This document shows positions 273 to 60,718 of a DNA stretch of 64,000 nt, in pieces. The notes under the pieces were generated by a model. It was given only the letters and a program-made list of their open reading frames with translations, was not told where the DNA came from and did not search any database. The DNA is from Candidatus Heimdallarchaeota archaeon (GTDB lineage: Archaea > Asgardarchaeota > Heimdallarchaeia > Heimdallarchaeales > Kariarchaeaceae). A program made the position numbers and the translations under genes. The DNA is taken from the NCBI GenBank assembly GCA_030149205.1, contig JASBSB010000004.1:34058-98057 (forward strand). Reading direction: 5' to 3'. Numbering within the stretch: the first letter of the stretch is position 1; each line of letters begins with the position of its first letter.

Positions 273-1400
273 CTACACCGCAGATGAAAATATTTTCAAA
301 GTCCAAGTGACTAATAGAAGGACGGTTGGTAAAACAATAGGAGATAAGAACTTTTTGTCCCCAAATCCTATTTTTGCCTGTGGGTCAGTTTTACCAAATT
401 TATCCATCAATGCATAGGTTACTACTTCTGAAACACCAATAACAGCCAACCATGAGTACATAATGGGTGTTAAGCTCGCATTTATCACATTGTCATAAAA
501 ATCATTCACTTGGGCTAAAAAGACAGCTAAAGTATATCCTACCTTTGCAGCTGGTGTATACTTCTGAGTTGATTGCTTTTCAATTACATCCCTTTCAATC
601 TTTTGATTTTTGCCTTTAAAAATTGTTTTTAAGGACTTTCCTGTTTCATAAATTAGAAAAGATAATGGTAGTATAAACTTCAATGCTGAGAGCCAGGCTA
701 ATAAGAGTTTATCAAATTCATCCAAGTCAGATTTCGTCCAAGGATTCAGGTTTCCAGGTGTGACTCGGTTCCTTTCTCGAATCATAATTAGAACACTAAA
801 GAGCAAAACAATAAGACCAGAAACCCGTCCAATCACTGAGCCTATCATCATGACCAAGGGCCCACCGGGCATCCAGCCAGTCTTCTGTGACAATGCTTGC
901 AAGATGTATCCTGCGTTAAGAAGGTTTAACCCAATTCCCTGTGCCCACACAAGGCTGTCGATGCTGTCTGTAGCGGGAGAGGGCGTCTCAGCTCCGAGCA
1001 CTATTTCAAGCAACACCTTGAGTAAATCCATCTCAATTGACTTTTGGCCAACACTCAGTCTTATAGTCGAGGTGCCCACGAGCAGCACATCAATGTTGAC
1101 AGTGACTCCATCAATGTACGATGTCACACCGACACCCGTTTGAGTTGTGACCGTGTGATGCCCAATGGACAGTTCTTCAGGCATCTGAAATATAGCTGTG
1201 ATCGTTTTTCGGATCATAGAAACCAGCGCTTCCATTATTGGTTTGATCACACTGTTCACAAGAAAATCACTAATTACCTTGACCCTAGGGACGTAAACAC
1301 CTTCCCTGAATACCTCTAGATTAATAAAAGAGTAGCTGTAGTCACTTTTACTTGTAAATGACTTCTGATGGAGGCAAGGATACACATATCTGATATACAT
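273..1400 (-). CDS. CxHQ-family hypervariable protein, short form with type-A C-terminal module (about 4 predicted TM segments)
   Basis: 375-aa ORF. The N-terminus MYIRYVYPCLHQ is shared with 6145..6579, 13205..13708, 19867..20238, 60719..61834 and 63700... Residues about 45-375 align with the C-terminal about 330 aa of 21424..23268 and 60719..61834 (VIKPIME.L, SLVWAQGIGL, NLNPWTK.DLDEFDKL, KFGK.DPQA). The conserved AAACTTAAATG element abuts the start at 1401-1425. Confidence 0.6.
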   Translation of the reverse strand: MYIRYVYPCLHQKSFTSKSDYSYSFINLEVFREGVYVPRVKVISDFLVNSVIKPIMEALVSMIRKTITAIFQMPEELSIGHHTVTTQTGVGVTSYIDGVTVNIDVLLVGTSTIRLSVGQKSIEMDLLKVLLEIVLGAETPSPATDSIDSLVWAQGIGLNLLNAGYILQALSQKTGWMPGGPLVMMIGSVIGRVSGLIVLLFSVLIMIRERNRVTPGNLNPWTKSDLDEFDKLLLAWLSALKFILPLSFLIYETGKSLKTIFKGKNQKIERDVIEKQSTQKYTPAAKVGYTLAVFLAQVNDFYDNVINASLTPIMYSWLAVIGVSEVVTYALMDKFGKTDPQAKIGFGDKKFLSPIVLPTVLLLVTWTLKIFSSAV

Positions 1401-1776
1401 TTAAGTCATTTAAGTTTATTGTACATGCTTACATTGTCGTTTCACCCAGATTTAAACGATTTACCTTTATAACAAATATCAAATCCTTTTGATTTATCGA
1501 GAAGTCCAGACTCAACGGAAGAAATAACTAAAGATTTCTGACAATTAAAATAGATCAATATAAATTTCCTGAATTAAATTTGTTATTCAATTTATAACAC
1601 CGCTTTTCTATTTTTTACACTGATAATTGTCCGCAAAAGTGTTAAATAATAGTATTTTGCAAAAATCCTTATTTGTTCTTTTGTTTGTTCTTCTGTATCT
1701 CTGCCTTTACAATTTTTGCATATTCAGGAGATGATAGCAAACCAAACAAAAAAATAAAAATTATTGCATTCCCTAA

Positions 1777-4040: not shown

Positions 4041-4979
4041 TTAAAATATCGGAAATAAGATAAGAGATATTACCTTGGTTGATTTGCTTTTGTCTGAGAG
4101 AAGCATTCCTCTATAATAAAACAGGTTGATCACAAACATTGTAAAATATACCCTTGCCAGGAACTGGTTGATAAACAGGAAGGTCATAGAGTTAAGGCTC
4201 GATTTCAGGAGTAGAGCGGTTGCCAATGCAGCAAACAGGTTTGAAACTGAAAGAGCAATCTGTATCCCTGTAGCCTTCGGCTTGTCTGTGCTGAGCAGTG
4301 GGTAGATCAACCAAAAGCTCACCATGTTCAGAGCCTCAATTATAAGAACTGAAAAGATGGTGAATCCAGCTGTCCGATAATCAATTAAAAGCGTCTCAAT
4401 TGATACAGCAACCTCAGAAAGCAGTTTGTTGAAGTTGATGACAAAAGAGTCAATCTGAAATTTAACATTGTCACCTGTCACAAGCATGGCGAAGCCTAAT
4501 TTTGTACCTGCGATTGATACTGTGGGAACTGCCCCTGAAGACCTTGTGACGTCAGGGAAAACGGCACTTAATAGTGAGAACAGACCATCTGTCAGGGTGT
4601 TAGTAAAGACCCCCAATACCTGAAGTATGACCTTAAAGACCTCTGCCATAATATAACTACCGGCCGCCTTGGTCCCGTCGACGAAGCTGGTGACGCCGTC
4701 CTTGATGGTCTGCAGGGCTGTGGTACTCATTGTCCAAAGCTTGCTGACAAAGTCCACCAGGGTCGCCCCAGGCTTGCCAATGATGCTCATCACCCACCGG
4801 TTCTGCTGCCAGCTGCCAGCAACATCAACGCACATCGTGATTAATCCATCATAGACAAAGTCAGCAAAGATCAGAGAAACAAAATTTGTTGGGTTCAACA
4901 AGTCTGCAATACTGTGGTTAGGCAGGATGAGTAAGGTCTCATAAGAGGTCTGGTGCATACAGGGTACTGGTCTGTTCAT
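4041..4979 (-). CDS. CxHQ-family hypervariable protein, long form (conserved 110-aa N-domain + unique hydrophobic C-terminal module)
   Basis: 312 aa. The N-terminus MNRPVPCMHQTSYETLLILPNHSIADLLNPTNF...MCVDVAGSWQQNRWVMSIIGKPGATLVDF...QTIKDGVTSFVDGTKAAGSYIM is almost identical to 10521..11930, 14611..14922 and the core of 21424..23268. The C-terminal 200 aa is unique with 4-5 TM segments. Own TATA promoter at 5011-5027. Confidence 0.65.
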   Translation of the reverse strand: MNRPVPCMHQTSYETLLILPNHSIADLLNPTNFVSLIFADFVYDGLITMCVDVAGSWQQNRWVMSIIGKPGATLVDFVSKLWTMSTTALQTIKDGVTSFVDGTKAAGSYIMAEVFKVILQVLGVFTNTLTDGLFSLLSAVFPDVTRSSGAVPTVSIAGTKLGFAMLVTGDNVKFQIDSFVINFNKLLSEVAVSIETLLIDYRTAGFTIFSVLIIEALNMVSFWLIYPLLSTDKPKATGIQIALSVSNLFAALATALLLKSSLNSMTFLFINQFLARVYFTMFVINLFYYRGMLLSDKSKSTKVISLILFPIF

Positions 4980-5007: not shown

Positions 5008-5030
5008 CCCTTTATATAAATTTATCCTAC
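5008..5030 (-). promoter_or_regulatory. archaeal TATA/BRE-like promoter of long-form gene 4041..4979
   Basis: Coding-strand GGATAAATTTATATAAAGGG lies about 30 nt upstream of the ATG. The same GGATAAAYTTAT(A/T)(A/T)A element recurs upstream of the other long-form genes. Confidence 0.55.
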
Positions 5031-5290: not shown

Positions 5291-6148
5291 TTACAAAAGA
5301 TTTTCCACAAAAGGATTATTGACACCCATTATTTCTTGCATGAGATACAAAATCTGTGTAGATAGTTCATGCTTTTTTATGAAATTTACTATAACACTCT
5401 CATTTTGTAGTAAAATGATTGGGGGATAGAGCTGATCCAAATATTCCTCAGTCACCTTCAATTTTGTATTAAAAACTTCTATAATCAAATGAGAGGTTGT
5501 GTTTGACTGCCTAAATTCTTTTATAACATCTTGGGAAATGTTTAGGTCTTCTATCGGATTGTTTGAGAGGCTTACAAACAATGTTGATTCAGGAAGGTGT
5601 AAAAGCCAATCTGAGGGGAGAATGGTCAATTTTTGGAATGCAAGGTTTACAAAATAGGGTAACTTTGATCTGTTGGGAGATAACAACGCACCATACCTCC
5701 CAATATATCTCAAAAATTGAATTGATTTTTGATAATCATCCCAGTCCTCCATCCGATTGCGATAAATTAGTGGAATACCTATAAATGCCAAAAAGAAATA
5801 CATCAGTGGGAAATAAACTCTAATCAATTGAATTAGCAAACCTTTCTCGAACACAGAGAAATTGGTTAAAAAATCTGGCTGGACAACCATGTATAAAACA
5901 AAATATCCCATAGCTCGCTTGGGGGACAATTCAATAGAAACTTTAATGTGTAAAACTGCGAGGAGTATGAAACTAATGAAGATTAAGAAAATTAAATTAA
6001 AGTACCAAACAAAACTATTGGGATTATTGGACAGATTAAACTCAGTTCCATAGGTTATAAAACTTAGAAATCCAACATCAACAGAAACAATGAATATTGA
6101 AATACCAAACCTGTTCCAATATCTATTAATTATATCTGAAATATTCAT
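5291..6148 (-). CDS. hypothetical multi-pass membrane protein, cognate partner of 6145..6579
   Basis: 285 aa and hydrophobic. Its start overlaps the stop of 6145..6579 by 4 nt (translational coupling). Confidence 0.5.
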   Translation of the reverse strand: MNISDIINRYWNRFGISIFIVSVDVGFLSFITYGTEFNLSNNPNSFVWYFNLIFLIFISFILLAVLHIKVSIELSPKRAMGYFVLYMVVQPDFLTNFSVFEKGLLIQLIRVYFPLMYFFLAFIGIPLIYRNRMEDWDDYQKSIQFLRYIGRYGALLSPNRSKLPYFVNLAFQKLTILPSDWLLHLPESTLFVSLSNNPIEDLNISQDVIKEFRQSNTTSHLIIEVFNTKLKVTEEYLDQLYPPIILLQNESVIVNFIKKHELSTQILYLMQEIMGVNNPFVENLL

Positions 6149-6579
6149 TGATGTTTCGCCACCAGATCTGCATAGACCACACTAAGTCTCAGGTGATAGA
6201 TTATGAACTTACAGATGCGAAAAATGCTTACTGGAATAGCAAAATTTACTGTAATTTCATAAACAAATTGTTGTGAAATCTTCTTTAGCAGGACTTCAAA
6301 CTCTTTAGTTGTACTCATAAACTCAATGAAATAAAAGCTTTGAAATGAAAAAATTGTTATTTTAATTAAATTATAGAAACAGACCATTACCTGCTCTAAA
6401 ATGGGTTTTAGAAGTTTATTCACTATATAATCCCCGACTCCCCTCACCTCGTTGACAGTAACGCAGCCCCTGATGGTCTGTTGGTTAATAGACCTGACAA
6501 TGAAGTCGCTGTGTGTTCCAATTCCAAAGGTTTCCTGATGAAGGCAAGGGTACACATACCTGATATACATTAAAACCAT
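6145..6579 (-). CDS. CxHQ-family hypervariable protein, short form (type-C C-terminal module)
   Basis: 144 aa. MVLMYIRYVYPCLHQETFGIGTHSDFIVRSINQQTIRGCVTVNEV, then a unique C-terminus. The upstream AAACTTAAATGG element is conserved. Confidence 0.6.
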   Translation of the reverse strand: MVLMYIRYVYPCLHQETFGIGTHSDFIVRSINQQTIRGCVTVNEVRGVGDYIVNKLLKPILEQVMVCFYNLIKITIFSFQSFYFIEFMSTTKEFEVLLKKISQQFVYEITVNFAIPVSIFRICKFIIYHLRLSVVYADLVAKHQ

Positions 6580-6690
6580 TTAAGTTTTTCTCACATTTAA
6601 GATGGGTTCACCCCTCTCCCATCATCACTGGAGAGTCTTTTTATAAGAACGTTCTAACATAATACAAGTACAACAATGAAGCAATACCAA
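6580..6690. repeat. about 105-bp direct repeat, copy 1 (copy 2 at 20239..20347)
   Basis: Near-identical to 20239-20347: TTAAAACCATTTAAGTTTTTCTCACATTTAAGATGGGTTCACCCCTCTCCCATCATCACTGGAGAGTCTTTTTATAAGAACGTTCTAACATA. Contains a CTCTCC-N10-GGAGAG hairpin. The repeat extends into the 3' end of 6641..7183. Confidence 0.7.
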
Positions 6691-9703: not shown

Positions 9704-10528
9704 TTATTTATCCTTACTAGACAAATTTTGAACGATTGAGCTACCGATTAAAAATAAGAATATAAAAACAAAGAGTCTAAATATTAAACTTGACCACATC
9801 ATAATTTGAAAGGGCATATTTTTTGTTCTGTATAGTTGTGAGCTATAGCCAATTAAAAATACGACTGTGATTAAAATGTGTTGGATCAAAGCATTAATTA
9901 TCTCCCAATTGACTCTAGAGATTGATTTTTTGCTTTCACTAATTGGGAAATAGCTATAATCTTTCATTTTATTTATAAAGTCATCAATTGAATTGGAATT
10001 TACTAAAATATAATTTATACCATCCCAAATATAGAGCTTGCTTTTAAAATTTTGACTTAGGGTTGCTTGAAGGTTAAACAAAAATTCTAGCATCAGAAAC
10101 GGTTGTAAAAAGACGGGGAGAGGAATTATCTTCCTTATATACTCATTTTGTGGTGTCGTATAAGTTTTCGAAGGATTATCAATAATCTCTTCTTCAATTA
10201 TTTCAAATATTTCCCTTTTTATTAAGATATTTTTTTTATTTGTAAAATCAACGTGATTGAACTTCTTGGAATAAATTTTTATCCTTGAGACTAAGAATAG
10301 ATATATCGTTGCTTGTATTAATACTTCAGTTAAGACTACAAGTCCTATATAACCCACTTGAGAGGGGAGTCTAGTAAAATCTTCAATAGTTTTTGGACGC
10401 ATAATTTGGTATACAAAAGGATATAACAAATAAATTAAATAATAACGAAGAAAGTAATTTACATTCCCATTATAGAAAATTAATTTTCTGTTGAGAGTGA
10501 GTAATTGTTTGATATTCATCTTAAACAC
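9704..10528 (-). CDS. hypothetical multi-pass membrane protein, cognate partner of 10521..11930
   Basis: 274 aa and hydrophobic. Start overlaps the stop of 10521..11930 by 8 nt. Confidence 0.5.
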   Translation of the reverse strand: MFKMNIKQLLTLNRKLIFYNGNVNYFLRYYLIYLLYPFVYQIMRPKTIEDFTRLPSQVGYIGLVVLTEVLIQATIYLFLVSRIKIYSKKFNHVDFTNKKNILIKREIFEIIEEEIIDNPSKTYTTPQNEYIRKIIPLPVFLQPFLMLEFLFNLQATLSQNFKSKLYIWDGINYILVNSNSIDDFINKMKDYSYFPISESKKSISRVNWEIINALIQHILITVVFLIGYSSQLYRTKNMPFQIMMWSSLIFRLFVFIFLFLIGSSIVQNLSSKDK

Positions 10529-11930
10529 GAACTCTAAATCCTAAGGCATAATTAACTAAGCCAAAGATTATATGGTAGTAAGCATAAAGCATAATAGATT
10601 GACCGTAGGCCATAAATCTTGAGGCTTGATCAGCTTTCGCTCTAGAATCCTTTACTTTTGGAAATGCAAACCTGAATGGTAAGTATCCTGCAATTAAACC
10701 CAAACCTGCTCCAATGAGCAACCCAACGAAGTTGTTATCAGAAAGTGCAGAAAAGTCTAGGTTATAGATCATATTATTTACCTCTTCCCCAACCCTAAAA
10801 ACAAGACTTATAGATGAAGCCCTTTGTGCTACTAAATTTAATATCTTCCACATTAATCCATCTTGTTTTAGAAATGAAACGATTGATTTTGCCAGCTTTA
10901 ACTTTGAATTTTTATCCATATTTTTGGCTAAGTTTTCAAAAATTGTTTTACCAGATCTAATTTGTGTGTTAAGTTTTCCCAATCTTCCATTTCCTGAGTT
11001 ATATTTAATTATTCCATCATCTATAAACTCACTGCGCTTAGTGTGTATTTGTTTTAACAGACTTAACCCCATTATTATATGAAATACGGTATTTATGCCA
11101 GTAACTTGCTGAAACCTCTTTTTATCATCCCAAAATGTAATCAAGGGGGCTATATTTGCAATAAGGTTTACGAGTGTTGCAGCCAACACGGCGAAATTAA
11201 GAGTCCCTACTGTTTCAGGGGTTGGTGGGAAAGGCTTTGCAAAAATCTGAATTGCTAAGTGACCGATCAAATCTACAAGGTGTAATCCCAATGCAGTAGA
11301 TTGTGGGGTGGATAACCCCCCTAATGTTTCAAATTTAAACCCTGATAAAAAGACCGGATCTAGCACACTAAATTTAAAATTTTTTAAATTATCAGAAGAA
11401 ATAATCAGGTAAACCCTATTTACATCAAATTGTACTTCTAAACCTAACAGAATCGAACTTCCCTCTTTGAGTTTATCTCCAGAAACTGTATCATAACTCA
11501 ATTGTGGTATCAATGTTGACATTGTAAAGAAGAATGTTTTGATTATCATTTTTAATAAAATTTGAATTACAGCATTAATTACTAATTTTAATGTATCAAC
11601 TATGTATTGTCCAGCCGCCTTGATCCCGTCGACGAAGCTGGTGACGTCGTTTTTGATGGTCGTTAAATCATCTTGTGTCACGCTGAACACCCCAAAGAAA
11701 AAGTCCACCAGGACCCAGCCGGGGTGCCCAATCAGCCCCATCACCCACAGGTTCTGCTGCCAGCTGCCAGCAACATCAACGCACATCGTGAGTAATCTGT
11801 CATAGACAAAGTCAGCAAACACCTGAGAAATAAAATTTGCTGGGTTCAACAAGTGTGCAATACTGTGCTTAGGCAGGATGAGTAAGGTCTCATAAGAGGT
11901 CTGGTGCATACAGGTTGCTGATCTATTCAT
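10521..11930 (-). CDS. CxHQ-family hypervariable protein, long form (unique 350-aa C-terminal module)
   Basis: 469 aa. The N-terminal 110 aa (MNRSATCMHQTSYETLLILPKHSIAHLLNPANF...MCVDVAGSWQQNLW...DVTSFVDGIKAAGQYI) matches 4041..4979 closely, including at DNA level. The C-terminus is unrelated to the other members. Own TATA promoter at 11961-11978. Confidence 0.65.
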   Translation of the reverse strand: MNRSATCMHQTSYETLLILPKHSIAHLLNPANFISQVFADFVYDRLLTMCVDVAGSWQQNLWVMGLIGHPGWVLVDFFFGVFSVTQDDLTTIKNDVTSFVDGIKAAGQYIVDTLKLVINAVIQILLKMIIKTFFFTMSTLIPQLSYDTVSGDKLKEGSSILLGLEVQFDVNRVYLIISSDNLKNFKFSVLDPVFLSGFKFETLGGLSTPQSTALGLHLVDLIGHLAIQIFAKPFPPTPETVGTLNFAVLAATLVNLIANIAPLITFWDDKKRFQQVTGINTVFHIIMGLSLLKQIHTKRSEFIDDGIIKYNSGNGRLGKLNTQIRSGKTIFENLAKNMDKNSKLKLAKSIVSFLKQDGLMWKILNLVAQRASSISLVFRVGEEVNNMIYNLDFSALSDNNFVGLLIGAGLGLIAGYLPFRFAFPKVKDSRAKADQASRFMAYGQSIMLYAYYHIIFGLVNYALGFRVRV

Positions 11931-11959: not shown

Positions 11960-11980
11960 CCTTTATTTAAATTTATCCTA
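11960..11980 (-). promoter_or_regulatory. archaeal TATA/BRE-like promoter of 10521..11930
   Basis: Coding-strand GGATAAATTTAAATAAAGGGAAGCC lies about 30 nt upstream of the ATG and is paralogous to 5008-5030. Confidence 0.5.
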
Positions 11981-12615: not shown

Positions 12616-13176
12616 TTATTCCTCTCCTTTCTGATTTCTGTTTTTTCTGATTTCTGTTCCAACAGTTGACGCAAAGGCCACGAAGATAAAATCAAACAAG
12701 ATATAAGGTGAAAAAACATACCTGATCCCAGAAAATGATAGAACATAAAATGGTGGATCTGAAACAGATGGGCTATAAGTTATACTAGGTGGCTTTCCTA
12801 AAACATTGATGAGAAAGCCAGTCAAGAGTGCTACCAGCAGTGGAATTGATAACAGCAGTGGTCTAACGACTACAACATAGATTACTCCCTCAAATTCATC
12901 ATGGGATTTCCAAAAAGAATATTTTTTCCTCAGCATCAGGCGAAAAGACCAGAGACGGTCATCTATATCAGGGTAAATAAATCCCATAATAACTGAGAAA
13001 AACAAAAAATAAATCATAAAATACCAGAAATATAACCACTGATAAATCGGTATACCAATTAAAATAATTCCGATCACGGTCAAAAGTAGCCTGTATTTTC
13101 GCAAGTTAAATCCAGCTTTTCTGGCAAATAATTGCCTCAGATTTATTTTAGAACACACGTCTTGAACTCGAAACAC
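12616..13176 (-). CDS. hypothetical membrane protein, partner of 13205..13708
   Basis: 186 aa and hydrophobic. Lies 28 nt downstream of the short-form gene on the same strand. Confidence 0.45.
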   Translation of the reverse strand: MFRVQDVCSKINLRQLFARKAGFNLRKYRLLLTVIGIILIGIPIYQWLYFWYFMIYFLFFSVIMGFIYPDIDDRLWSFRLMLRKKYSFWKSHDEFEGVIYVVVVRPLLLSIPLLVALLTGFLINVLGKPPSITYSPSVSDPPFYVLSFSGIRYVFSPYILFDFIFVAFASTVGTEIRKNRNQKGEE

Positions 13177-13204: not shown

Positions 13205-13708
13205 TTACAAAAATAATGAGATGTAGTAATACCCAAATTTTATTTTCTCTATAGCTGATTCCTTGATATAATATTGCTGTTTCTTGGTATTTATATCTTG
13301 ATAGGCTTTATTTTGTTCATTGACTAGATCTACTGCATTTTTATATTCCACATTTCTATAAGCTAATCCATCTTTGCCCAAATGACTAAACCGATATTCC
13401 TTCACCCTTTTATTAATTTCATTAAGGCCTTTTTCCATCTTAGATATTTGGTTTTGGTCGTTTTGAAGCATCAGTTTAGGAAGGCGAAGTGCGAAAAAGT
13501 TCACCAGTATAGATTTTATACCTCTGGCAATTGGCAGGAGTATATTGTTTGTGGTGAACTCCCCGACAGCCTTTATCCCGACGACGGTGACGCCGTCCTT
13601 GATGGTCTGCTGGTTGATAGACCTGACAATGAAGTCGCTGGGTATTCCAATTTCAAAGGATTCCTGATGAAGGCAAGCATACACATATCTGATATACATT
13701 AAAACCAT
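13205..13708 (-). CDS. CxHQ-family hypervariable protein, short form (type-D, soluble coiled-coil-like C-terminus)
   Basis: 167 aa. MVLMYIRYVYACLHQESFEIGIPSDFIVRSINQQTIKDGVTVVGIKAVGEF, then a unique lysine/glutamate-rich C-terminus. Junction DNA motif at 13581-13609. Confidence 0.6.
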   Translation of the reverse strand: MVLMYIRYVYACLHQESFEIGIPSDFIVRSINQQTIKDGVTVVGIKAVGEFTTNNILLPIARGIKSILVNFFALRLPKLMLQNDQNQISKMEKGLNEINKRVKEYRFSHLGKDGLAYRNVEYKNAVDLVNEQNKAYQDINTKKQQYYIKESAIEKIKFGYYYISLFL

Positions 13709-13846
13709 TTAAGTTTATCGCACAAAAATCATGTACGTAATCTTGCCCTCTCATGAAAATTAATGATGGACCCCTTAGTTTACCATATCTTTGCTCCTTG
13801 GATTCTGTTTAATCTTCAATCAGTTTCACGGAATAGGTTAACACAT

Positions 13847-14614
13847 CTATGTCTCTATAGGAGAGCTATTCTTGTCAAGAGGAAAGTCAATTTTAAGCGT
13901 AAACAAATCAATTAAAACTAAATTAAGTAACACCCATGTCTTCGCAACCACATGGCCATTTACCAATGGAATTGAGTTTGTGATGCTTTCAAAAAATGTG
14001 AAGAGTAGCAAATTTCCAAGATAGTTGAGTGTCAGAAAACCAAGGATACCTAATTTCCAAATCGTAAAGTCAGTCAATGCTATATTCTTGATCATATTTA
14101 CAAAGTATAACACCATAATCAGAAACATCCCTAAAATTCTTTGAAGAATCCAGTCACCAGCAAAGAAACTCAAAAAATACAATGAGACTATGGTGATTAC
14201 CCTAAAAAAGTAGAAACCAATACTATTTTTCTCAAGGGTCTTGGGAGATATTATAAATTTAAACTTAAATTTCGGGTCATCTGAATTGGAATCTGTGAAA
14301 AACATGAGATATAATACCAGTAACATGAAAATTAAGTCTCTACTTACTATACTACTGATCAGTATTAGCACACCTATGACATAAAAACCCTGGTAGTTTT
14401 CCTTGGGGTCAGGCTCAATTATCCCTCGAAGTGATATCCGACTAATTATTTTGGAAATAACAAGCAAGATCACCATTCCTCCAAGGAGACCGAAACCTTC
14501 CCAACTTGAAAATGTTACATTATTAAGGAGCTGAAAGTAAAGCACTATTGGAAACAGCAGTACCATTATCTGCCTCAGAACAAAATTTACAATAGGGATG
14601 GGTTTTCGTTTCAT
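13847..14614 (-). CDS. NFxLRQ-family multi-pass membrane protein (immunity-like partner)
   Basis: 255 aa. Homologous to 20652..21431, 61845..62657 and partial 1..269 (NFVLRQIMVLLFPIVLYFQL..SWEGFGLLGGM). Start overlaps the stop of 14611..14922 by 4 nt. Confidence 0.55.
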   Translation of the reverse strand: MKRKPIPIVNFVLRQIMVLLFPIVLYFQLLNNVTFSSWEGFGLLGGMVILLVISKIISRISLRGIIEPDPKENYQGFYVIGVLILISSIVSRDLIFMLLVLYLMFFTDSNSDDPKFKFKFIISPKTLEKNSIGFYFFRVITIVSLYFLSFFAGDWILQRILGMFLIMVLYFVNMIKNIALTDFTIWKLGILGFLTLNYLGNLLLFTFFESITNSIPLVNGHVVAKTWVLLNLVLIDLFTLKIDFPLDKNSSPIET

Positions 14615-14922
14615 ATTCTAACTCCGTCGACGAAGCTGGTGACGCCCCTTTTGATCTCTGTGAGTGCCTTGTCTGTCAAACTCCACAGTTGGTTCACCGC
14701 ATCCACCAGGGTCCAGGTGGGATGCCCGATCAGCCCCATCACAGTTTTCCACAGGTTCTGCTGCCAGCTACCTGTCACATCAACGCACATTATAATCAAC
14801 CTGCTAATTGTGTGACTATCAAAGACCTGTAAAAGTGTAGATTTCATCATGTCTTCACCAATGTAGTTAGAGGATGAAAGCCTCAGATGAGGGTGATGTT
14901 GACAACTAGTTATTTCGTCCAT
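14611..14922 (-). CDS. CxHQ-family long-form N-terminal stub (truncated right after the junction motif)
   Basis: 103 aa. MDEITSCQHH...MCVDVTGSWQQNLW...GVTSFVDGVRI, then a stop immediately after the conserved junction. No C-terminal module, yet still coupled to an NFxLRQ partner gene. Confidence 0.5.
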   Translation of the reverse strand: MDEITSCQHHPHLRLSSSNYIGEDMMKSTLLQVFDSHTISRLIIMCVDVTGSWQQNLWKTVMGLIGHPTWTLVDAVNQLWSLTDKALTEIKRGVTSFVDGVRI

Positions 14923-17178: not shown

Positions 17179-17202
17179 TGTATTTACCTCAGAGTTTAAA
17201 AT

Positions 17203-17460
17203 TCACAACTGTAGCACCTGTGTTGTAAGGGTGAGGAAAATCATTTCCGGTATTTTCACAATAATGGTATGAACTCCTTCCCCTATGGGTCTGATGATAT
17301 TGTTGGAATTGAACTCACCAGCGTATTTCACCCGCTCGTTAAAGTTGGTGATACAGTCCTTGATGGTCTGCCGAAATACATCTGTCATTGAAAAACGAGT
17401 GAATGATCCAGCATCAAATGAATCCTGATGGAAACAGATGTACACATATCTATCATCCAT
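17203..17460 (-). CDS. CxHQ-family hypervariable protein, short form (type-E, 85 aa)
   Basis: MDDRYVYICFHQDSFDAGSF...QTIKDCITNFNERVKYAGEF. Junction DNA motif at 17348-17370. Confidence 0.5.
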   Translation of the reverse strand: MDDRYVYICFHQDSFDAGSFTRFSMTDVFRQTIKDCITNFNERVKYAGEFNSNNIIRPIGEGVHTIIVKIPEMIFLTLTTQVLQL

Positions 17461-17972
17461 TAATCTTATTTAAGTTTATTTCCCAAATTTTAGTTATTAG
17501 AAATTCTAAATCTTTGTGTGGTTTTATTTTTTGTTTAAGTTTGAGTACTTCATAACCTTTTGCCATTGCAGGGAATAAAAAGCTCAACCAATGACCAGAG
17601 ATGCAAACACCAAGAAATCCAGCAATTACCAGATCATTTCGGGGAGGAAAGCCAAACCTAATCTACCACTGCTGCTATACCCGCTTTCAACAAATTCTGT
17701 AGTGTTTGCGGTGTTGTTTTTATGATAGGAAATGACTATTTGTTAGTGGGTCTGGGAACTGTTTTTTATATTAGTTACCTTGTCACAGGGATCTGTGATG
17801 ATCTTTCAGGAAATTTCCGCATCCATTGACCTTCACTACATTTAACTACAATGTTTCATCAAGTTTTTTCTCTTTTAGTTAGGAAATGCAGTTTAGCTTG
17901 ATTAATATAATTTTATTCGGATCACTAACCTAGTAAAGCCTAAAAAGACAACAATGTGTTGTAAGCTAGTCT

Positions 17973-18475: not shown

Positions 18476-19048
18476 CTAGTAAAATACAAGTACCAGGAGT
18501 ATCCTATATGCTTTTGGTTCCCAACTCATCCGAGCATTTAACATTAACAACGTTGCAATAGCTCCCATAGATATAGTCCAAGTACCTCCAAGCAGTAATG
18601 TATGTTCAAATACAACTTGGTTTATGTCTAAGGTTTCATAAATTAAATCTGTGGATGAAATCAATGGACTTTTAATTATAAATACATTATTATTTACGTT
18701 AAATTGTATGCCTTTGATTACTCCTTGTACATCAATGGTTAAAACTAGAGTATTTTGCTTTTTAACACAAATAAAATTGTTCAAAAGTTCAACAACATTT
18801 CCATCTAACATTGAAATTGTTTTGAAAATAGCAAAAAGCATTGTTTTTACAGTTATTGCTATAAATTGATGAATTACCTCAAGGACTGCATTCATAATAT
18901 AACTACCGGCTGCTTTCACCCCATCGACGAAGCTGGTGACGCTGCTCCTAATACTCTGAAAGTTACTATACATGGTAATTGAGTGCTTTTCAGTTTCGAA
19001 ATCAAATGACAGCTGATGGAGACAGCAGTACACAGAAGTAATATCCAA
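18476..19048 (-). CDS. CxHQ-family hypervariable protein, short form (type-F)
   Basis: The track ORF 18476..19297 has a spurious 5' extension. The family-type start is ATG at 19046-19048 (MKSLDITSVYCCLHQLSF...SSVTSFVDGVKAAGSYIM), preceded by the AAACTTTATATG element. The C-terminus is unique. Confidence 0.55.
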   Translation of the reverse strand: MDITSVYCCLHQLSFDFETEKHSITMYSNFQSIRSSVTSFVDGVKAAGSYIMNAVLEVIHQFIAITVKTMLFAIFKTISMLDGNVVELLNNFICVKKQNTLVLTIDVQGVIKGIQFNVNNNVFIIKSPLISSTDLIYETLDINQVVFEHTLLLGGTWTISMGAIATLLMLNARMSWEPKAYRILLVLVFY

Positions 19049-19088
19049 TGATTTCATATAAAGTTTCCTCATTCCAGTTGAAGTATGA

Positions 19089-19856
19089 CTAATGACTCTT
19101 TCTATCACTAGAAAATACAAATTCGTTGGTGGTTGATGACCCTTCATCATTTTTAGAAGGTGAGTGATTGACATCCTCTGAAGCATTTGAATGTTGAATT
19201 GAGAACTGAAATGGGTAACTTCGTAAGATAGGAACTCCATTAATCTCAGAGTTAAAAAATGGCTCAGCGAGGATTTTAAGCAAAAGTAGTAATGCAAACA
19301 ACATGATTGTGAGTATCAAAAGTGTGTTCGTTGTAAGATAGACACTTAATTTTTCATTTTGCATCCTCCATCCAGAAGAGAGTAATAGAGATAAAAGCAT
19401 ATAAATTCCGGATAACAAAGAAGAGACATATAACCCCTGTCTCTTCTCCAAGTTGGATCGCAAATTGGTTTTAACTTTAATTACCTTGTAGATGACACCA
19501 GTTCCGATAAGGAACGGACAAAATATTGCAAGATAAACAGTGTAAATATTTATCCATTCTGCATAGGTACTAAAAAGCAGAAATTCGAATGGATAAAGCA
19601 GGAACAACAACAAAACGCTGATCTTTAGCAGTATTTGGTCTGGTAGCTCGATGAGTGTATAGAAAACATAGAAATTAGAAAAGTTAGATAATCCCCACCA
19701 CATTAGAATGAGAATGCCCTGTAAAGTTAGAGCTACTATCCCTTGGTGCCTTACTGCATAAAATAATTCCCAAGTCAAGCTGTATACGAAAACCACAGTT
19801 AGAGCAGACAGTGTTAGGACAATGTTCTGTTTGTAATATTTAAGAAACGCTTTCAT
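19089..19856 (-). CDS. hypothetical multi-pass membrane protein, partner of 19867..20238
   Basis: 255 aa with about 7 TM helices. Lies 10 nt downstream of the short-form gene. Confidence 0.5.
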   Translation of the reverse strand: MKAFLKYYKQNIVLTLSALTVVFVYSLTWELFYAVRHQGIVALTLQGILILMWWGLSNFSNFYVFYTLIELPDQILLKISVLLLFLLYPFEFLLFSTYAEWINIYTVYLAIFCPFLIGTGVIYKVIKVKTNLRSNLEKRQGLYVSSLLSGIYMLLSLLLSSGWRMQNEKLSVYLTTNTLLILTIMLFALLLLLKILAEPFFNSEINGVPILRSYPFQFSIQHSNASEDVNHSPSKNDEGSSTTNEFVFSSDRKSH

Positions 19857-19866: not shown

Positions 19867-20238
19867 TTAAAATGATTGGTTGTCTATCATCGCATACATC
19901 ACTGCTAAAACAACATGGTAAAATGTGTAAAACATCATGTATGTATTAGACTGAATCAAGATATTCCCTGAGGAATCCACAGTCACACTTACTGAAATTA
20001 TTGTTTCAACAATCTGTAACAGGCCAAGTATTGCTGAGCGATACACATTCATCATTTCTTCTGCAATAGGCAGGGGTGTATTGTTGGCTATGACCTCCCC
20101 AGCAGCCTTGATCCCGTCGACGGTGACGTCTCCCCTGATGGTCTGCAGGGCTGTGAAAGTGAAGCTACTGTGTGTTCCAGTTTCATAGGATTCCTGATGA
20201 AGGCAAGGGTACACATACCTGATATACATTAAAACCAT
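19867..20238 (-). CDS. CxHQ-family hypervariable protein, short form (type-B C-terminal module)
   Basis: 123 aa. MVLMYIRYVYPCLHQESYETGTHS...QTIRGDVTVDGIKAAGEV...PIAEEMMNVYRSAILGLLQIVETIISVSVTVDSSGNILIQSNT. The 3' part is about 98% identical at DNA level to the partial plus-strand copy at 63850-63960. Confidence 0.6.
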   Translation of the reverse strand: MVLMYIRYVYPCLHQESYETGTHSSFTFTALQTIRGDVTVDGIKAAGEVIANNTPLPIAEEMMNVYRSAILGLLQIVETIISVSVTVDSSGNILIQSNTYMMFYTFYHVVLAVMYAMIDNQSF

Positions 20239-20347
20239 TTAAGTTTTTCTCACATTTAAGATAGGTTCACCCCTCTCCCATCATCACTGGAGAGTCTTTT
20301 TATAAAAATGTTCTAACATAGTGCAAGTAGAACAATGTTTAGGTGAA
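20239..20347. repeat. about 105-bp direct repeat, copy 2 (copy 1 at 6580..6690), including a remnant 3' end of a 6641..7183-type gene
   Basis: Near-identical to 6580-6690. Its distal part retains the last about 45 nt of a 6641..7183-like ORF, but no such gene follows. Confidence 0.65.
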
Positions 20348-20651: not shown

Positions 20652-21431
20652 TTACACAGCTGAGACAACTTTTATTTTGCAAAATGAACAAATCTTGACT
20701 GTGAGCCAGTCAAGATACGCAGCAAAAACCAATATTCCAGCCTTAGAAACTACAAATACTACTAAAACACCTGATCCTCTGTCCGAGATGAAATTTTGTC
20801 CCAGAAATGCCAGTGCTATTAAGTTTTCAACAAAAATTAATGCTATAACACCATAAGCGATTAAGTCCCAACTTCCCAAATCAGATAACAGTTTATCCTG
20901 AAAAATGTTAACAAAAAATAGGAGAATAAACAGAAGCAATGCAGTTATCTTTACTGTATCCCATTCATTGTCTAGGAAACTCAAAACAAAAAGAGAAATT
21001 AAGATAATCAATCGAGCAAAAAACAACCTATATTTTCTTACCTCAAATTTTTTCGATTCAGAGTTAAACACCTTTCTAAGCACAGGATCATCAGAAAAAA
21101 TATCTGAGGCAATTATGGCATAGATAGCTAGTATCATCAAAAATAAATTTCTACTAATTATTACACCCAAAAACCCTAGAATTGAATAGCTGTAATATAC
21201 CAAATAGTCTTTATCTCTTTCAGTAATTTTATGGAGAAGTATTCGACTAATTGTTTTAGAAATTATTACTAAGATCATCATTCCTCCTAGGATACCAAAC
21301 CCCTCCCAGCTTAGGAAAGAGACCCTGTTTTGGAGTTGAATGTAAAGCATTATTGGAAACAGCAACATAATTACTTGTCGCAGAAAAAAATTCGTTAGAC
21401 GCAAATTTTCTGGTTCCATAATATCACACAA
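20652..21431 (-). CDS. NFxLRQ-family multi-pass membrane protein (immunity-like partner of 21424..23268)
   Basis: 259 aa. Homologous to 13847..14614 and 61845..62657. Start overlaps the stop of 21424..23268 by 8 nt. Confidence 0.55.
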   Translation of the reverse strand: MCDIMEPENLRLTNFFLRQVIMLLFPIMLYIQLQNRVSFLSWEGFGILGGMMILVIISKTISRILLHKITERDKDYLVYYSYSILGFLGVIISRNLFLMILAIYAIIASDIFSDDPVLRKVFNSESKKFEVRKYRLFFARLIILISLFVLSFLDNEWDTVKITALLLFILLFFVNIFQDKLLSDLGSWDLIAYGVIALIFVENLIALAFLGQNFISDRGSGVLVVFVVSKAGILVFAAYLDWLTVKICSFCKIKVVSAV

Positions 21432-23294: not shown

Positions 23295-23315
23295 GAGCTA
23301 TATAAGTTTATCCAG
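23295..23315 (-). promoter_or_regulatory. archaeal TATA-like promoter of 21424..23268
   Basis: Coding-strand GGATAAACTTATATAGC lies about 29 nt upstream of the ATG and matches the long-form promoter consensus. Confidence 0.45.
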
Positions 23316-60589: not shown

Positions 60590-60718
60590 AAAATTATTCT
60601 GGTAAAAAATGTTATAGTTCAGACATACAGGGTGGCTTACAAGTAGTTTTTGAGACTTAGGATAATAAAGAAAGATAAGATTTTTTGTTAAGATATGATT
60701 TTTGTGCGATAAACTTAA
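60590..60718 (+). repeat. conserved about 130-bp upstream element of plus-strand short-form genes, copy 1 (copy 2 at 63560..63699)
   Basis: CTGGTAAAAAATGTTATAGTTCAGACATACAGGGTG..TTACAAGTAGTTTTTGAGACTTAGGATAATAAAGAAAG...TTTTGTGCGATAAACTTAAATG, about 85% identical to 63560-63699. Confidence 0.6.

What the first reader, a model, noticed from the sequence alone, without database searches (positions are those of the whole stretch)
4640..4860. GC-rich, nucleotide-level-conserved junction element (GTCGACGAAGCTGGTGACGCCGTCCTTGATGGTCTG) marking the constant/variable boundary of every family member
The peptide QTIKDGVTSFVDG is encoded by an almost invariant 30-40-nt GC-rich element in an otherwise AT-rich genome. 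Minus-strand copies lie at about 4676-4712, 6458-6480, 11628-11662, 13581-13609, 14625-14650, 17348-17370, 18923-18945, 20115-20155 and 22450-22490. Plus-strand copies lie at 60825-60870 and 63799-63826. Flanking conserved DNA extends for 100-150 nt in several copies: 4660-4800 and 22450-22590 are nearly identical. Similarity among paralogues stops abruptly downstream of this element. This looks like a recombination breakpoint or demarcation motif, functionally analogous to VENN in CdiA or DPxGL in Rhs proteins. It may be a target for homologous or site-directed recombination that swaps C-terminal modules. Because the element contains no stops on the antisense strand, it also generates the spurious plus-strand ORFs seen at 4669..4854, 11602..11805 and 22160..22612.
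Basis: seen in the sequence. Interest (0 to 1): 0.75.

Follow-up and report, generated by a model that had tools for sequence, protein, structure and literature searches.

The report
Recombination junction of archaeal polymorphic-protein cassettes
The GC-rich 36-40-nt element is real: it is the last conserved stretch of an unannotated archaeal gene family whose variable, membrane-embedded C-terminal ends (each with a partner membrane-protein gene) are swapped by recombination, and two mosaic copies show exchange tracts ending in or just after it.

Summary
Observation confirmed. The window holds 11 recognisable copies plus one eroded copy, against 0 expected by chance.

- **What the element is.** It is the 3' end of a GC3-rich "constant" block (GC3 0.79; background genes 0.33). 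It is not an isolated GC island.
- **Sharp DNA boundary.** Synonymous sites stay conserved through codon 13 (nt +39). They randomise immediately afterwards, although amino-acid similarity continues (Fisher p=5e-7).
- **Recombination evidence.** Two independent mosaics place 3' breakpoints at +16..+35 and +37..+73 (p=4e-13 and 2e-11).
- **Host and family.** The host is an archaeon (RadA). The family has no Pfam, NCBIfam, PDB, PADLOC or PHROG match. Only about 70 representative clusters exist among 1.84 billion proteins.
- **Relatives.** Full-length relatives have a signal peptide, lectin-like domains, the constant region and a hydrophobic variable C-terminus. Seven copies in a second archaeon diverge at the same point, but the motif DNA there is AT-rich. 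GC-richness is therefore specific to this lineage.
- **Cassette anatomy.** Every cassette also carries a promoter-like leader. Each is followed by polytopic membrane-protein genes, which I read as putative immunity genes.
- **Reading.** The element works like a VENN or Rhs-type demarcation motif serving homologous recombination, in a new archaeal polymorphic effector family. Toxicity is inferred, not shown.
- **Open lead.** Relatives carry a conserved tyrosine recombinase next to the locus.

The parts
22450..22485 (-). Junction motif in the longest family member (codons 262-273 of ORF 21424..23268)
   Evidence: One mismatch to the 36-mer. It marks the end of the GC3-rich constant block.
4677..4712 (-). 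Junction motif, class A cassette (ORF 4041..4979). This is the copy flagged in the finding.
   Evidence: Exact match. The 3' breakpoint of an exchange tract lies inside it, at +16..+35.
11628..11663 (-). Junction motif, class A cassette (ORF 10521..11930)
   Evidence: It is an island of 83% identity flanked by 47-70% upstream.
14626..14661 (-). Junction motif, class A cassette (ORF 14611..14922). The ORF stops 3 codons after the motif and abuts a partner membrane gene.
18923..18958 (-). Junction motif in ORF 18476..19297. Only the motif is retained from the constant region.
   Evidence: 77-97% identity at 0..+30 only.
13574..13609 (-). Junction motif, class B cassette (ORF 13205..13708), with the SF codons deleted
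17335..17370 (-). Junction motif, class B-like cassette interrupted by stop codons (pseudogene, about 17180-17480)
20110..20145 (-). Junction motif, class B cassette (ORF 19867..20238)
6445..6480 (-). Junction motif, class B cassette (ORF 6145..6579), the most diverged of the 11 copies
60815..60850 (+). Junction motif, class B cassette of the second, inverted array (ORF 60719..61834)
63799..63834 (+). Junction motif, class B cassette that runs off the window end. The copy is a mosaic.
   Evidence: The breakpoint lies at +37..+73.
1277..1316 (-). Eroded 12th copy of the motif position (LEVFREGVYVPRVKV) in ORF 273..1400
   Evidence: The C-terminal domain is 46% identical to that of the longest member.
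22447..23200 (-). GC3-rich constant region of the longest member. It is homologous to the constant region of full-length relatives.
   Evidence: GC3 0.79 against 0.46-0.57 in the rest of the gene and 0.33 in background genes. tblastn homology starts at about 23200.
21424..23268 (-). Longest family member (614 aa): leader, full constant region, motif and type-1 hydrophobic C-terminal domain. It lacks a signal peptide and the N-terminal domain.
4041..4979 (-). Class A cassette gene (312 aa): leader, about 80 constant codons, motif and a distinct C-terminal domain
10521..11930 (-). Class A cassette gene (469 aa)
14611..14922 (-). Class A cassette remnant (103 aa): constant tail and motif only
18476..19297 (-). 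Cassette gene with the motif only (the ORF as listed probably over-extends 5')
13205..13708 (-). Class B cassette gene
19867..20238 (-). Class B cassette gene. Its C-terminal domain is nearly identical to that of the 63799 copy.
6145..6579 (-). Class B cassette gene
273..1400 (-). Cassette gene with type-1 C-terminal domain and eroded motif (= P0001)
60719..61834 (+). Class B cassette gene with type-1 C-terminal domain (= P0016)
23300..23312 (-). Promoter-like leader box GATAAACTTATAT upstream of the longest member
5014..5026 (-). Leader box upstream of ORF 4041..4979
11965..11977 (-). Leader box upstream of ORF 10521..11930
13707..13719 (-). Leader box of class B cassette 13205..13708
6578..6590 (-). 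Leader box of class B cassette 6145..6579
17468..17480 (-). Leader box of the pseudogenised cassette
20237..20249 (-). Leader box of class B cassette 19867..20238
1408..1420 (-). Leader box of cassette 273..1400
60708..60720 (+). Leader box of cassette 60719..61834
63689..63701 (+). Leader box of the cassette at the window end
4696..4787 (-). Minimal exchange (gene-conversion) tract shared with the longest member. It is flanked 5' by sequence that groups with the 11663 copy.
   Evidence: Informative sites: 41 versus 5 in the 5' segment, 8 versus 40 in the tract, Fisher p=3.7e-13.
63771..63836 (+). Segment of the 63799 copy that groups with the 6480 and 13609 copies. From about 63870 onward the copy is nearly identical to the 20145 copy.
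   Evidence: 16 versus 2 sites, then 2 versus 69. Fisher p=1.8e-11 on the -40..+70 versus +70..+220 split.
20652..21431 (-). Partner gene of the longest member: a protein with 7 hydrophobic helices, overlapping the stop by 8 nt (putative immunity, type 1)
13847..14614 (-). Type-1 partner gene (39% identical to 20652..21431) directly abutting the truncated cassette 14611..14922
61845..62657 (+). Partner gene of cassette 60719..61834 (8 hydrophobic helices; shares the N-terminal NFFLRQ motif)
9704..10528 (-). Partner gene of cassette 10521..11930 (overlaps by 8 nt; membrane protein)
5291..6148 (-). Partner gene of cassette 6145..6579 (overlaps by 4 nt; membrane protein)
19089..19856 (-). Partner gene of cassette 19867..20238 (6 hydrophobic helices)
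12616..13176 (-). Partner gene of cassette 13205..13708 (4 hydrophobic helices)

Best explanation
**What it is.** The element is the 3'-terminal ~39 nt (13 codons, QTIKDGVT[SF]VDG) of the conserved constant region of an unannotated archaeal family of polymorphic proteins.

**Family architecture.** Full-length relatives are secreted or surface proteins. They have a signal peptide, a large lectin-like N-terminal part, a ~190-residue constant region and a ~300-residue hydrophobic variable C-terminal domain. Each is followed by a polytopic membrane-protein gene.

**Organisation in this genome.** The family occurs as arrays of at least 13 cassettes. Each cassette consists of:
- a promoter-like leader;
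- 0 to ~190 codons of constant region, always ending in this motif;
- a variable C-terminal domain;
- one or more partner membrane genes.

**How it works.** The motif is the shared homology tract at which homologous recombination or gene conversion joins a constant 5' part to different C-terminal-domain-plus-partner modules. I presume this is RadA-dependent. Repeated conversion keeps the tract's synonymous sites identical up to nt +39, while everything 3' of it evolves independently. The peptide it encodes is also a family-wide signature that lies within a long predicted helix, so protein constraint adds to the conservation.

**Why it is GC-rich.** The whole recombining constant block is GC3-rich. 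Either GC-biased gene conversion or import of the block from a GC-richer relative could explain this.

**Function.** By analogy with polymorphic toxin systems, the C-terminal domains are most likely membrane-acting effectors and the partner genes their immunity proteins.

**Shown:**
- copy number of the element;
- the sharp synonymous-site boundary at +39;
- two mosaics with breakpoints at the motif;
- the same junction position in a second genome;
- the family architecture.

**Inferred:**
- the recombination enzyme;
- toxin and immunity functions;
- promoter activity of the leader;
- the cause of the GC bias.
For: 1. **Copies.** 11 copies plus 1 eroded copy, against 0 expected by chance.
2. 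**Synonymous sites.** Among codons for the same amino acid, 93 of 105 are identical in motif codons 1-13, against 70 of 119 in codons 14-36 (p=4.6e-7). Third-position identity is 82-100% and then 36-55%, although the amino acids stay similar.
3. **First mosaic.** The 4712 copy groups with the 11663 copy from -260 to -109 (41 informative sites versus 5). It groups with the longest gene from -75 to +16 (40 versus 8 in the -140..+39 bin). It switches back at +35. Fisher p=3.7e-13.
4. **Second mosaic.** The 63799 copy groups with the 6480 and 13609 copies from -28 to +37. It groups with the 20145 copy from +73 onward (69 versus 2). p=1.8e-11.
5. **Motif as an island.** The motif is an identity island in copies whose upstream constant sequence has diverged: 11663, 14661 and 18958.
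6. **Composition.** GC3 is 0.65-0.95 across constant codons 31-290 of the longest gene, and falls after the motif. In the other cassettes only the retained tail is GC3-rich. The constant region has higher GC3 than the rest of the gene in 5 genes from 4 genomes, while GC at codon positions 1 and 2 is almost flat.
7. **Second genome.** Seven copies in MAG GCA_024278115.1 share ...GDTLVDIVAD.FTGVS.ALQTIKDNVGEFVDGVK and diverge right after GVK. Other lineages in the representative set do the same.
8. **Module logic.** Type-1 C-terminal domains occur behind three different 5' contexts. Each is followed by a related polytopic membrane gene. All cassettes are followed by genes with 1-8 predicted hydrophobic helices, most with three or more.
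9. **Full-length architecture.** Seen in L003 (955 aa, signal peptide) and L009 (2661 aa, Laminin_G_3).
10. **Archaeal host.** RadA is encoded in the window.
Against: - No copy in the window has a signal peptide or the N-terminal domain. The longest gene is itself fused to the leader at about codon 20. An expressed, secreted recipient gene was therefore not seen here.
- Every cassette has a promoter-like leader, which classical silent orphans lack.
- No C-terminal domain matches any known toxin. No partner matches a known immunity family.
- In L003 the break between main gene and orphan lies about 15 residues upstream of the motif.
- The second mosaic's breakpoint lies just after the motif rather than inside it.
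- In class B copies only about 39 nt of homology remain. This is short for efficient homologous recombination.
- The structure model is of low confidence (pLDDT 47).
- Related loci carry a conserved tyrosine recombinase, so a site-specific component cannot be excluded.
Confidence: 0.65

Rival explanations
1. Cassettes are moved by a dedicated tyrosine recombinase, in the manner of an integron or shufflon. The conserved DNA at cassette borders is its recognition site. That site could be the GC-rich motif or, more plausibly, the leader.
For: - An orthologous tyrosine recombinase (55-61% identity) lies next to the family locus in three other archaeal genomes: L003/L002, L009, and fragments in L004 and L008. 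In L003 and L009 an orthologous partner ORF of about 220-235 aa lies beside it.
- In L003 an 81-nt direct repeat (83% identity) brackets the orphan cassette, and one copy abuts the recombinase gene.
- The same TCATCATCCTAAT-CAC element recurs in the second MAG beside the recombinase and at contig ends.
- In the window every cassette has a conserved ~60-nt leader, found nowhere else.
Against: - No recombinase gene lies in the 64-kb window or in the 2.4 kb beyond its left end. Both arrays do continue off the window, however.
- The motif shows no significant hairpin or dyad (z from -0.63 to +1.72).
- The motif's DNA sequence is not conserved between genomes.
- The window leader shows no similarity to the boundary element of the relatives. 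It looks like the promoters of housekeeping genes.
- The observed mosaics are patch-like tracts inside homologous sequence, as gene conversion would produce.
Confidence: 0.15
2. The element has no role in recombination. It is conserved only because it encodes a structurally essential helix, and its GC-rich codons are a relic of a recently imported GC-rich gene that was then duplicated.
For: - The peptide is a family-wide signature with a nearly invariant K.
- It sits inside a long predicted helix.
- The longest gene and its upstream neighbour form a ~2-kb island of 50-58% GC, suggesting import.
Against: - Protein constraint cannot explain synonymous-site identity of 89% that falls to 59% at codon 14, while the amino acids stay similar.
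- The sequence 3' of the motif is saturated at synonymous sites, so the copies are old. The motif must have been homogenised or selected at the DNA level.
- Two mosaics demonstrate exchange.
- GC3 is elevated in the constant region in 4 genomes. This argues against a single import event.
Confidence: 0.1
3. The family is not a toxin/immunity system. It is a variable membrane-protein system for self/non-self recognition or virus evasion. The junction serves the same recombinational diversification but with a different biological purpose.
For: - No known toxin domain is detected.
- All variable parts and partners are membrane-embedded.
- Each cassette seems separately transcribed.
- Archaeal hypervariable modules of unknown function with similar organisation have been described: VARTIG, PMC8416519.
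Against: - One variable domain tightly paired with one co-varying downstream membrane gene is the hallmark of effector/immunity modules.
- Pore-forming effectors in bacterial systems typically have membrane immunity proteins (general knowledge).
Confidence: 0.2

Closest known systems
Rhs/YD-repeat polymorphic toxins (GC-rich core, PxxxxDPxGL demarcation, AT-rich C-terminal tips, orphan tip+immunity cassettes)
   Same: - A conserved core is joined to variable C-terminal domains at a short demarcation motif.
- There is a sharp compositional break: a GC-rich core and AT-rich tips.
- Downstream arrays hold orphan cassettes that keep a piece of core.
- Each cassette has a small partner gene.
   Different: - There are no RHS/YD repeats and no Pfam match.
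- The host is archaeal.
- The motif sequence differs.
- The C-terminal domains are hydrophobic and membrane-embedded rather than mostly nucleases.
- Every cassette has a promoter-like leader.
- No autoproteolytic aspartyl protease motif was recognised.
CdiA contact-dependent inhibition toxins (VENN pre-toxin motif, orphan cdiA-CT/cdiI modules)
   Same: - The motif marks the constant/variable boundary.
- Orphans retain nucleotide-identical homology 5' of and including the motif.
- Homologous recombination swaps the toxin and immunity pair. Some CdiA-CTs are pore formers with membrane immunity proteins.
   Different: - There is no two-partner secretion partner, no FHA repeats and no PT-VENN domain.
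- The system is archaeal, and the secretion route is unknown beyond a Sec-type signal peptide in relatives.
Predicted archaeal polymorphic toxin systems (Makarova et al. 2019 mBio, as cited in PMC8416519) and VARTIG modules of Thermococcales
   Same: - Archaeal loci with a long first gene.
- Downstream genes homologous to its C-terminal region.
- Adjacent membrane proteins that track the variant.
- Recombination-driven variability.
   Different: - According to PMC8416519, the commonest toxins in archaeal PTS are DNases and RNases. Here no such domain is present.
- VARTIG varies an Ig domain and recombines between strains. Here a helical constant region with a defined junction motif recombines between paralogues in one genome.
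- I could not read the 2019 paper. I therefore cannot exclude that this family is listed there.
Integron or shufflon-type cassette systems driven by a tyrosine recombinase
   Same: - Relatives have a conserved tyrosine recombinase at the end of the array.
- A repeated boundary element flanks a cassette in one relative.
   Different: - No recombinase lies in the window.
- The junction motif has no attC-like structure.
- The cassettes carry promoter-like leaders rather than being promoterless.
- The observed exchanges look like homologous conversion tracts.

Membership tests
Polymorphic toxin system (general definition of Zhang et al. 2012, PMC3482391) | Conserved N-terminal or central region joined to hypervariable C-terminal domains | tested here: met
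   The constant block is shared, and the C-terminal domains fall into unrelated or 30-46% identical types.
Polymorphic toxin system (general definition of Zhang et al. 2012, PMC3482391) | Arrays of standalone C-terminal cassettes that keep a stretch of homology to the main gene | tested here: met
   Twelve cassettes lie in the window and more lie beyond it.
Polymorphic toxin system (general definition of Zhang et al. 2012, PMC3482391) | A cognate immunity gene immediately downstream of each toxin domain | tested here: inconclusive
   Every cassette is followed by membrane-protein genes, often overlapping it. Type-1 domains are followed by related partners. The immunity function itself is untested.
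Polymorphic toxin system (general definition of Zhang et al. 2012, PMC3482391) | N-terminal secretion or trafficking domain on the full-length protein | tested here: not met
   It is not met in this window: there is no signal peptide and no N-terminal domain. It is met in relatives: L003 has a signal peptide, and P0004 and P0014 have a signal peptide or Laminin_G_3 domains.
Polymorphic toxin system (general definition of Zhang et al. 2012, PMC3482391) | The C-terminal domain is a toxin | not testable with these tools
   No match to Pfam, NCBIfam, PADLOC, PHROGs or PDB. The domains contain 1-4 hydrophobic helices.
CdiA / PT-VENN | VENN pre-toxin domain, FHA repeats and a CdiB partner | tested here: not met
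   No Pfam hit at E<=0.1 for any member. No TPS-type gene was identified among the window ORFs scanned against Pfam.
Rhs / YD-repeat toxins | YD/RHS repeats and a PxxxxDPxGL motif | tested here: not met
   No RHS Pfam hit. The motif here reads ALQTIKDGVTSFVDG.
Rhs / YD-repeat toxins | GC-rich core versus AT-rich variable tip | tested here: met
   GC3 is 0.79 in the constant region and 0.1-0.5 in the tips. This is a resemblance only.
Tyrosine-recombinase cassette system (integron-like) | Recombinase gene adjacent to the array | tested here: not met
   None lies in the window or in 2.4 kb beyond it. One is present in relatives. The arrays run off the window, so this remains open.
Tyrosine-recombinase cassette system (integron-like) | Structured or dyad recombination site at each cassette border | tested here: not met
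   Folding of the motif is no better than shuffled sequence. The leader was not analysed for recombinase binding.

The most novel reading that the evidence does not exclude
The loci could be an archaeal cassette-exchange system with two layers.

**Layer 1: capture.** A dedicated tyrosine recombinase, conserved next to the family in three other genomes, would capture or excise promoter-bearing C-terminal-domain-plus-partner cassettes at a boundary element.

**Layer 2: grafting.** RadA-mediated conversion at the junction motif would then graft those cassettes onto a secreted carrier protein.

The synonymous GC enrichment of the recombining block, seen in all four genomes examined, would then be a footprint of GC-biased gene conversion in archaea.
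Probability: 0.15. Interest if true: 0.85.

Novelty: new member of a known kind. Interest (0 to 1): 0.6.

Why it matters
**A new family in a poorly studied domain.** According to PMC8416519 (2021), archaeal polymorphic toxin systems had been predicted but not experimentally characterised. This family has no annotation in any library searched. It is rare: about 70 representative clusters in 1.84 billion proteins, and no hit in 185,579 species-representative genomes with the four conserved peptide patterns scanned.

**A locus suited to experiment.** The composition labels the recombining segment naturally. The exact end of conversion tracts (nt +39) can be read directly from synonymous sites, and two exchange events can be reconstructed.

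**What it would allow:**
- a test of cassette swapping in archaea;
- a test of GC-biased gene conversion in archaea;
- a test of whether these membrane-embedded C-terminal domains are new pore-forming effectors with membrane immunity proteins.

**A practical consequence.** These repeats break assemblies. Contigs end in the leader or the constant region, and the repeats create spurious antisense ORFs.

Tried and rejected
- **RNA or DNA structural element.** Rejected. Folding of six copies is no better than shuffled sequence. Rfam gives no hit in the window.
- **Known protein families.** The family members and partners tested give no hit in Pfam or NCBIfam below the curated cut-offs. PADLOC gives nothing apart from one weak SIR2 hit for P0002 (E=9e-4), and PHROGs nothing. 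A PDB profile search of the family alignment also finds nothing.
- **Structure route.** AlphaFold2 with an 11-sequence alignment gave a mean pLDDT of 47. I ran no fold search because the matches would be meaningless.
- **Other genomes.**
  - Two genome-contig scans with conserved peptides found no relative. Such scans only find exact peptide patterns.
  - The metagenome scan found one locus.
  - The DNA 24-mer is absent from viral contigs and from all fetched loci.
  - blastn of the constant block against plasmids found nothing.
- **The search for homologous proteins with a 25-sequence core alignment.** It returned nothing, probably a limit of the word index.
- **Link between the window leader and the boundary element of relatives.** No similarity above shuffled controls. 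TCATCATCCTAAT is not enriched in the window.
- **Taxon identification.** Only "archaeon" can be stated.
- **Makarova et al. 2019 (archaeal PTS).** The paper is not held in the library.
Full report

Yes. The 36-mer occurs exactly at 4677-4712 and with one mismatch at 22450-22485. None is expected in shuffled sequence. On the coding sense it reads CAGACCATCAAGGACGGCGTCACCAGCTTCGTCGAC (QTIKDGVTSFVD).

A tolerant search finds 11 copies. Nine are coded on the minus strand, with 3' ends at 4677, 6445, 11628, 13574, 14626, 17335, 18923, 20110 and 22450. Two are on the plus strand, at 60815 and 63799. A twelfth, eroded copy sits at 1277-1316 in ORF 273..1400.

The window is about 35% GC, while the copies are 44-64% GC. 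BLAST confirms that 4674-4826 and 22447-22605 are 91.8% identical over 159 nt. They are the expected by-product of a GC-rich coding segment.

**2. What surrounds it?**

*Cassette layout.* Every copy lies in frame in a minus-strand ORF (1-23 kb) or a plus-strand ORF (60-64 kb) of one paralogous family. The longest member is 21424..23268 (614 aa). The copies fall into three groups:
- Three class A copies keep about 80 codons upstream of the motif (...VDVAGSWQQNLW...GKPGATLVDFVS.LW...).
- Six class B copies keep essentially only the motif and lack its two SF codons.
- One further copy (18923-18958, in ORF 18476..19297) keeps only the motif but retains the SF codons.

*Variable parts and partners.* After the motif the proteins diverge into C-terminal domains of several types, with 1-4 hydrophobic helices each. 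Every cassette is followed, often with a 4-8-nt overlap, by genes for membrane proteins with 1-8 predicted hydrophobic helices, most with three or more.

*Pairing.* Type-1 C-terminal domains occur in 21424..23268, 273..1400, 60719..61834 and a fragment just outside the window. They are 34-46% identical and are followed by related partner genes. In one cassette (14611..14922) the ORF ends three codons after the motif and abuts a type-1 partner gene. The variable domain appears to have been deleted there.

*Leader.* All cassettes, including the longest gene, share an upstream leader: GATAAAYTTAWAT, an invariant GTA about 25 nt downstream, and a short coding leader (C[LM]HQxS[FY]E). The box has 10 matches in the window against 1.5 expected. 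All 10 lie upstream of family members. It resembles the A/T boxes found 25-35 nt upstream of housekeeping start codons in this window. It is therefore probably an archaeal TATA/BRE-type promoter. This is an inference.

**3. Host and family**

*Host.* The window encodes a RadA/Rad51 recombinase (PF08423, E=1e-71), PAC2 and TrmB. The host is therefore an archaeon. I could not determine its lineage.

*No annotation.* The family members tested have no Pfam, NCBIfam, PADLOC, PHROG or PDB relative.

*Rarity.* A word-indexed search of 5.8 billion proteins returned only the window's own ORF and one metagenomic protein. An exhaustive HMMER profile search of 1.84 billion representatives found 70 members, 38 of them below 1e-10.

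*Architecture of relatives.* The long members have a Sec-type signal peptide and, in two cases, Laminin_G_3/ConA-like lectin domains. These are L003 (955 aa), P0005 (1199 aa), P0014 (1988 aa) and P0004 (2661 aa). They then carry the constant region (AQVPP.AR.SM...NPT[KE][DN]RVFD...YGFGS[IV]ERII...) and a hydrophobic C-terminal domain. Most other members are 330-470 aa and begin inside the constant region, which is the orphan form.

*This window lacks the secreted part.* No copy here has the signal peptide or N-terminal domain. Homology of the longest gene to full-length relatives begins at about codon 23. Two peptide-pattern scans of 185,579 species-representative genomes found no relative.

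**4. Is the motif more than a protein motif?**

*Protein level.* The motif belongs to a family-wide signature, TLVD.V..[IV][FW]....A...[IV]K........G[VI]K..G.[FY]I, with K nearly invariant. A low-confidence model (pLDDT 47) places it inside a long helix, residues 246-312.

*DNA level.* The pattern cannot be explained by protein constraint:
- Across the 11 copies, third-position identity is 82-100% in codons 1-13 and 36-55% in codons 14-24. The amino acids of the latter (VKAAGEFI) remain similar.
- Among codons specifying the same residue, 93 of 105 are the same codon within the motif, against 70 of 119 just after it (Fisher p=4.6e-7). Their GC3 is 0.89 against 0.52.
- The longest gene and the 4712 copy are nearly identical from -135 to +39 and diverge at the next base.

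Protein similarity decays more gradually.

**5. Direct evidence of exchange**

*First mosaic.* I examined the triplet of the longest gene, the 4712 copy and the 11663 copy.
- From -260 to -109 the informative sites group 4712 with 11663. In the -300..-140 segment the count is 41 versus 5.
- From -75 to +16 they group 4712 with the longest gene. In the -140..+39 segment the count is 40 versus 8.
- From +35 they switch back (Fisher p=3.7e-13).

This is a conversion tract of 91-144 nt whose 3' end lies inside the motif.

*Second mosaic.* The 63799 copy groups with the 6480 and 13609 copies from -28 to +37. It groups with the 20145 copy from +73 onward, 69 sites versus 2 (p=1.8e-11). That breakpoint lies within about 35 nt after the motif.

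*Motif as an island.* In copies whose upstream constant sequence has diverged (11663, 14661, 18958), the motif stands out as an island of 77-97% identity.

**6. Why GC-rich?**

The motif is not an isolated island. In the longest gene, GC3 is 0.65-0.95 over codons 31-290 and drops after the motif. In the other cassettes, only the retained constant tail is GC3-rich. Background genes have GC3 of 0.33.

The constant region has higher GC3 than the rest of the same gene in every lineage examined, while GC at codon positions 1 and 2 barely changes:

| Lineage | GC3, constant region | GC3, rest of gene |
|---|---|---|
| Window | 0.79 | 0.46-0.57 |
| L003 | 0.50 | 0.29 |
| L009 | 0.34 | 0.19-0.26 |
| Second MAG | 0.32-0.36 | 0.18-0.26* |

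*C-terminal part only; the 13-14 N-terminal codons of these two genes (GC3 0.43-0.54) are too few to count.

In the second MAG (30% GC) the homologous motif is encoded by AT-rich codons (CAA ACT ATC AAG GAT AAT GTG GGT GAG TTT GTG GAT GGA GTG AAA). Even so, seven copies there diverge at exactly the same point, after GVK.

GC-richness is therefore a property of this lineage's constant block, not of the junction as such. Two explanations remain open:
- GC-biased gene conversion in the segment that recombines.
- Import of the block from a GC-richer relative. The adjacent ORF 23407..24309 is also GC-rich.

**7. Mechanism proposed**

The motif is the distal end of the homology shared by all cassettes. 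Homologous recombination or gene conversion between constant tails grafts different C-terminal-domain-plus-partner modules onto the same 5' part. RadA is the obvious candidate enzyme, but this is inferred. Conversion homogenises the DNA up to the point where homology ends.

By analogy with polymorphic toxin systems (PMC3482391; archaeal predictions cited in PMC8416519), the hydrophobic C-terminal domains are most likely membrane-acting effectors. The downstream polytopic proteins would be their immunity factors.

The promoter-like leader may keep orphan partner (immunity) genes expressed. It may also serve as the downstream homology arm of the preceding cassette. Both ideas are speculative.

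**8. Rivals**

*(a) Site-specific recombination.* An orthologous tyrosine recombinase flanks the family locus in L003/L002, in L009 and, as fragments, in L004 and L008; in L003 and L009 a conserved partner ORF lies beside it. In L003 an 81-nt repeat brackets the orphan cassette, with one copy next to the recombinase. The same element recurs in the second MAG.

Against this:
- The window contains no recombinase.
- The motif has no structure and no cross-genome DNA conservation.
- The window leader is unrelated to that boundary element.

I rate this at 0.15. It is the lead most worth following, because both arrays run off the window in the direction where the recombinase would lie.

*(b) Pure protein constraint plus recent import.* This is contradicted by the synonymous-site pattern and by the mosaics.

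*(c) A recognition system rather than a toxin system.* This cannot be excluded, because no toxin domain is recognisable.

**9. Comparison with known systems**

The element works like PxxxxDPxGL in Rhs proteins and VENN in CdiA. The resemblance to Rhs includes the contrast between a GC-rich core and AT-rich tips. It is not a member of either family: there are no YD/RHS repeats, no PT-VENN domain, and no TPS or FHA components.

It fits the general definition of a polymorphic toxin system on three structural criteria: a constant region with a variable C-terminus, orphan arrays, and adjacent partner genes. The secretion domain is seen only in relatives. Toxicity is untested.

I file it as a new member of a known kind, from a domain of life where such systems are predicted but uncharacterised.

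**10. Verdict**

Interest is moderate to high (0.6):
- The concept is known.
- The family is unannotated and archaeal.
- The junction can be mapped to the nucleotide.
- The recombinase association and the GC3 footprint are new leads.

Noticed in passing
L003 11217-12158(-), L009 18725-19606(-), L004 2387-2785(-), L008 2222-2689(-): An orthologous tyrosine recombinase (55-61% identity) lies next to the family locus in three other archaeal genomes. In L003 and L009 an orthologous ORF of about 220-235 aa sits beside it. None is seen in the window, whose arrays run off both ends.
   Followed up: partly
L003 9478-9558 and 11070-11150; L005 4161-4171; L007 23-33; L008 2139-2149: A cassette-boundary element (TCATCATCCTAAT-CAC...) brackets the L003 orphan cassette as an 81-nt direct repeat (83% identity). 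It recurs beside the recombinase and at contig ends in a second genome. It shows no similarity to the window's leader.
   Followed up: partly
window 22447-23200; L003 6324-9191; L009 10001-17986; L005 734-2218; L006 521-2107: Synonymous GC content (GC3) of the constant region exceeds that of the rest of the same gene in all four genomes examined. GC at codon positions 1 and 2 barely changes. This could be a footprint of GC-biased gene conversion.
   Followed up: partly
window 23407-24309 (+), tandem repeat 24117-24231: A GC-rich ORF (GC3 0.6-0.7; 300 aa) lies divergent from the longest family gene. It carries a 27-nt tandem repeat of 4.3 copies (VGLEKVVDA) and matches nothing in Pfam, NCBIfam, PADLOC or PHROGs. 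Together with the constant block it forms a ~2-kb island of 50-58% GC.
   Followed up: partly
window 14611-14922 / 13847-14614: One cassette ends three codons after the motif and overlaps the start of a type-1 partner membrane gene. The variable domain appears to have been precisely deleted.
   Followed up: no
window 2497-3654 (-); L006 2139-3008: A membrane protein with a weak leucine-rich-repeat match (LRR_8, E=8e-4) sits inside the window array. An LRR_8 protein also follows a family member in the second MAG.
   Followed up: no
window 1-23300 (minus strand) and 60000-64000 (plus strand): The two cassette arrays are in inverted orientation. They flank about 37 kb of housekeeping genes, including radA (50569-51492). 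Recombination between them would invert that segment.
   Followed up: no
L010 6640-6811 (2.4 kb beyond window position 1); L005, L007 contig ends: Short-read contigs end inside the leader or the constant region (for example, the Logan contig stops at ...NWQQNLWVMG). These repeats therefore fragment assemblies, and the family is probably under-counted in MAGs.
   Followed up: partly
L009 20928-21219 and 22947-23238: A 292-nt direct repeat (98% identity) flanks a ~2-kb segment carrying small toxin-antitoxin-like genes (TumE, DUF433, MJ0235-like), next to the recombinase. ParE/RelB and DUF433/DUF5615 pairs also neighbour cassettes in L004 and L008.
   Followed up: no
window 13382-13702 (+), 21668-22072 (+), 22160-22612 (+), 4669-4854 (+), 11602-11805 (+): Long antisense ORFs overlap family genes, most of them across or beside the GC-rich constant tail. 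They are most likely spurious and could mislead gene callers.
   Followed up: partly
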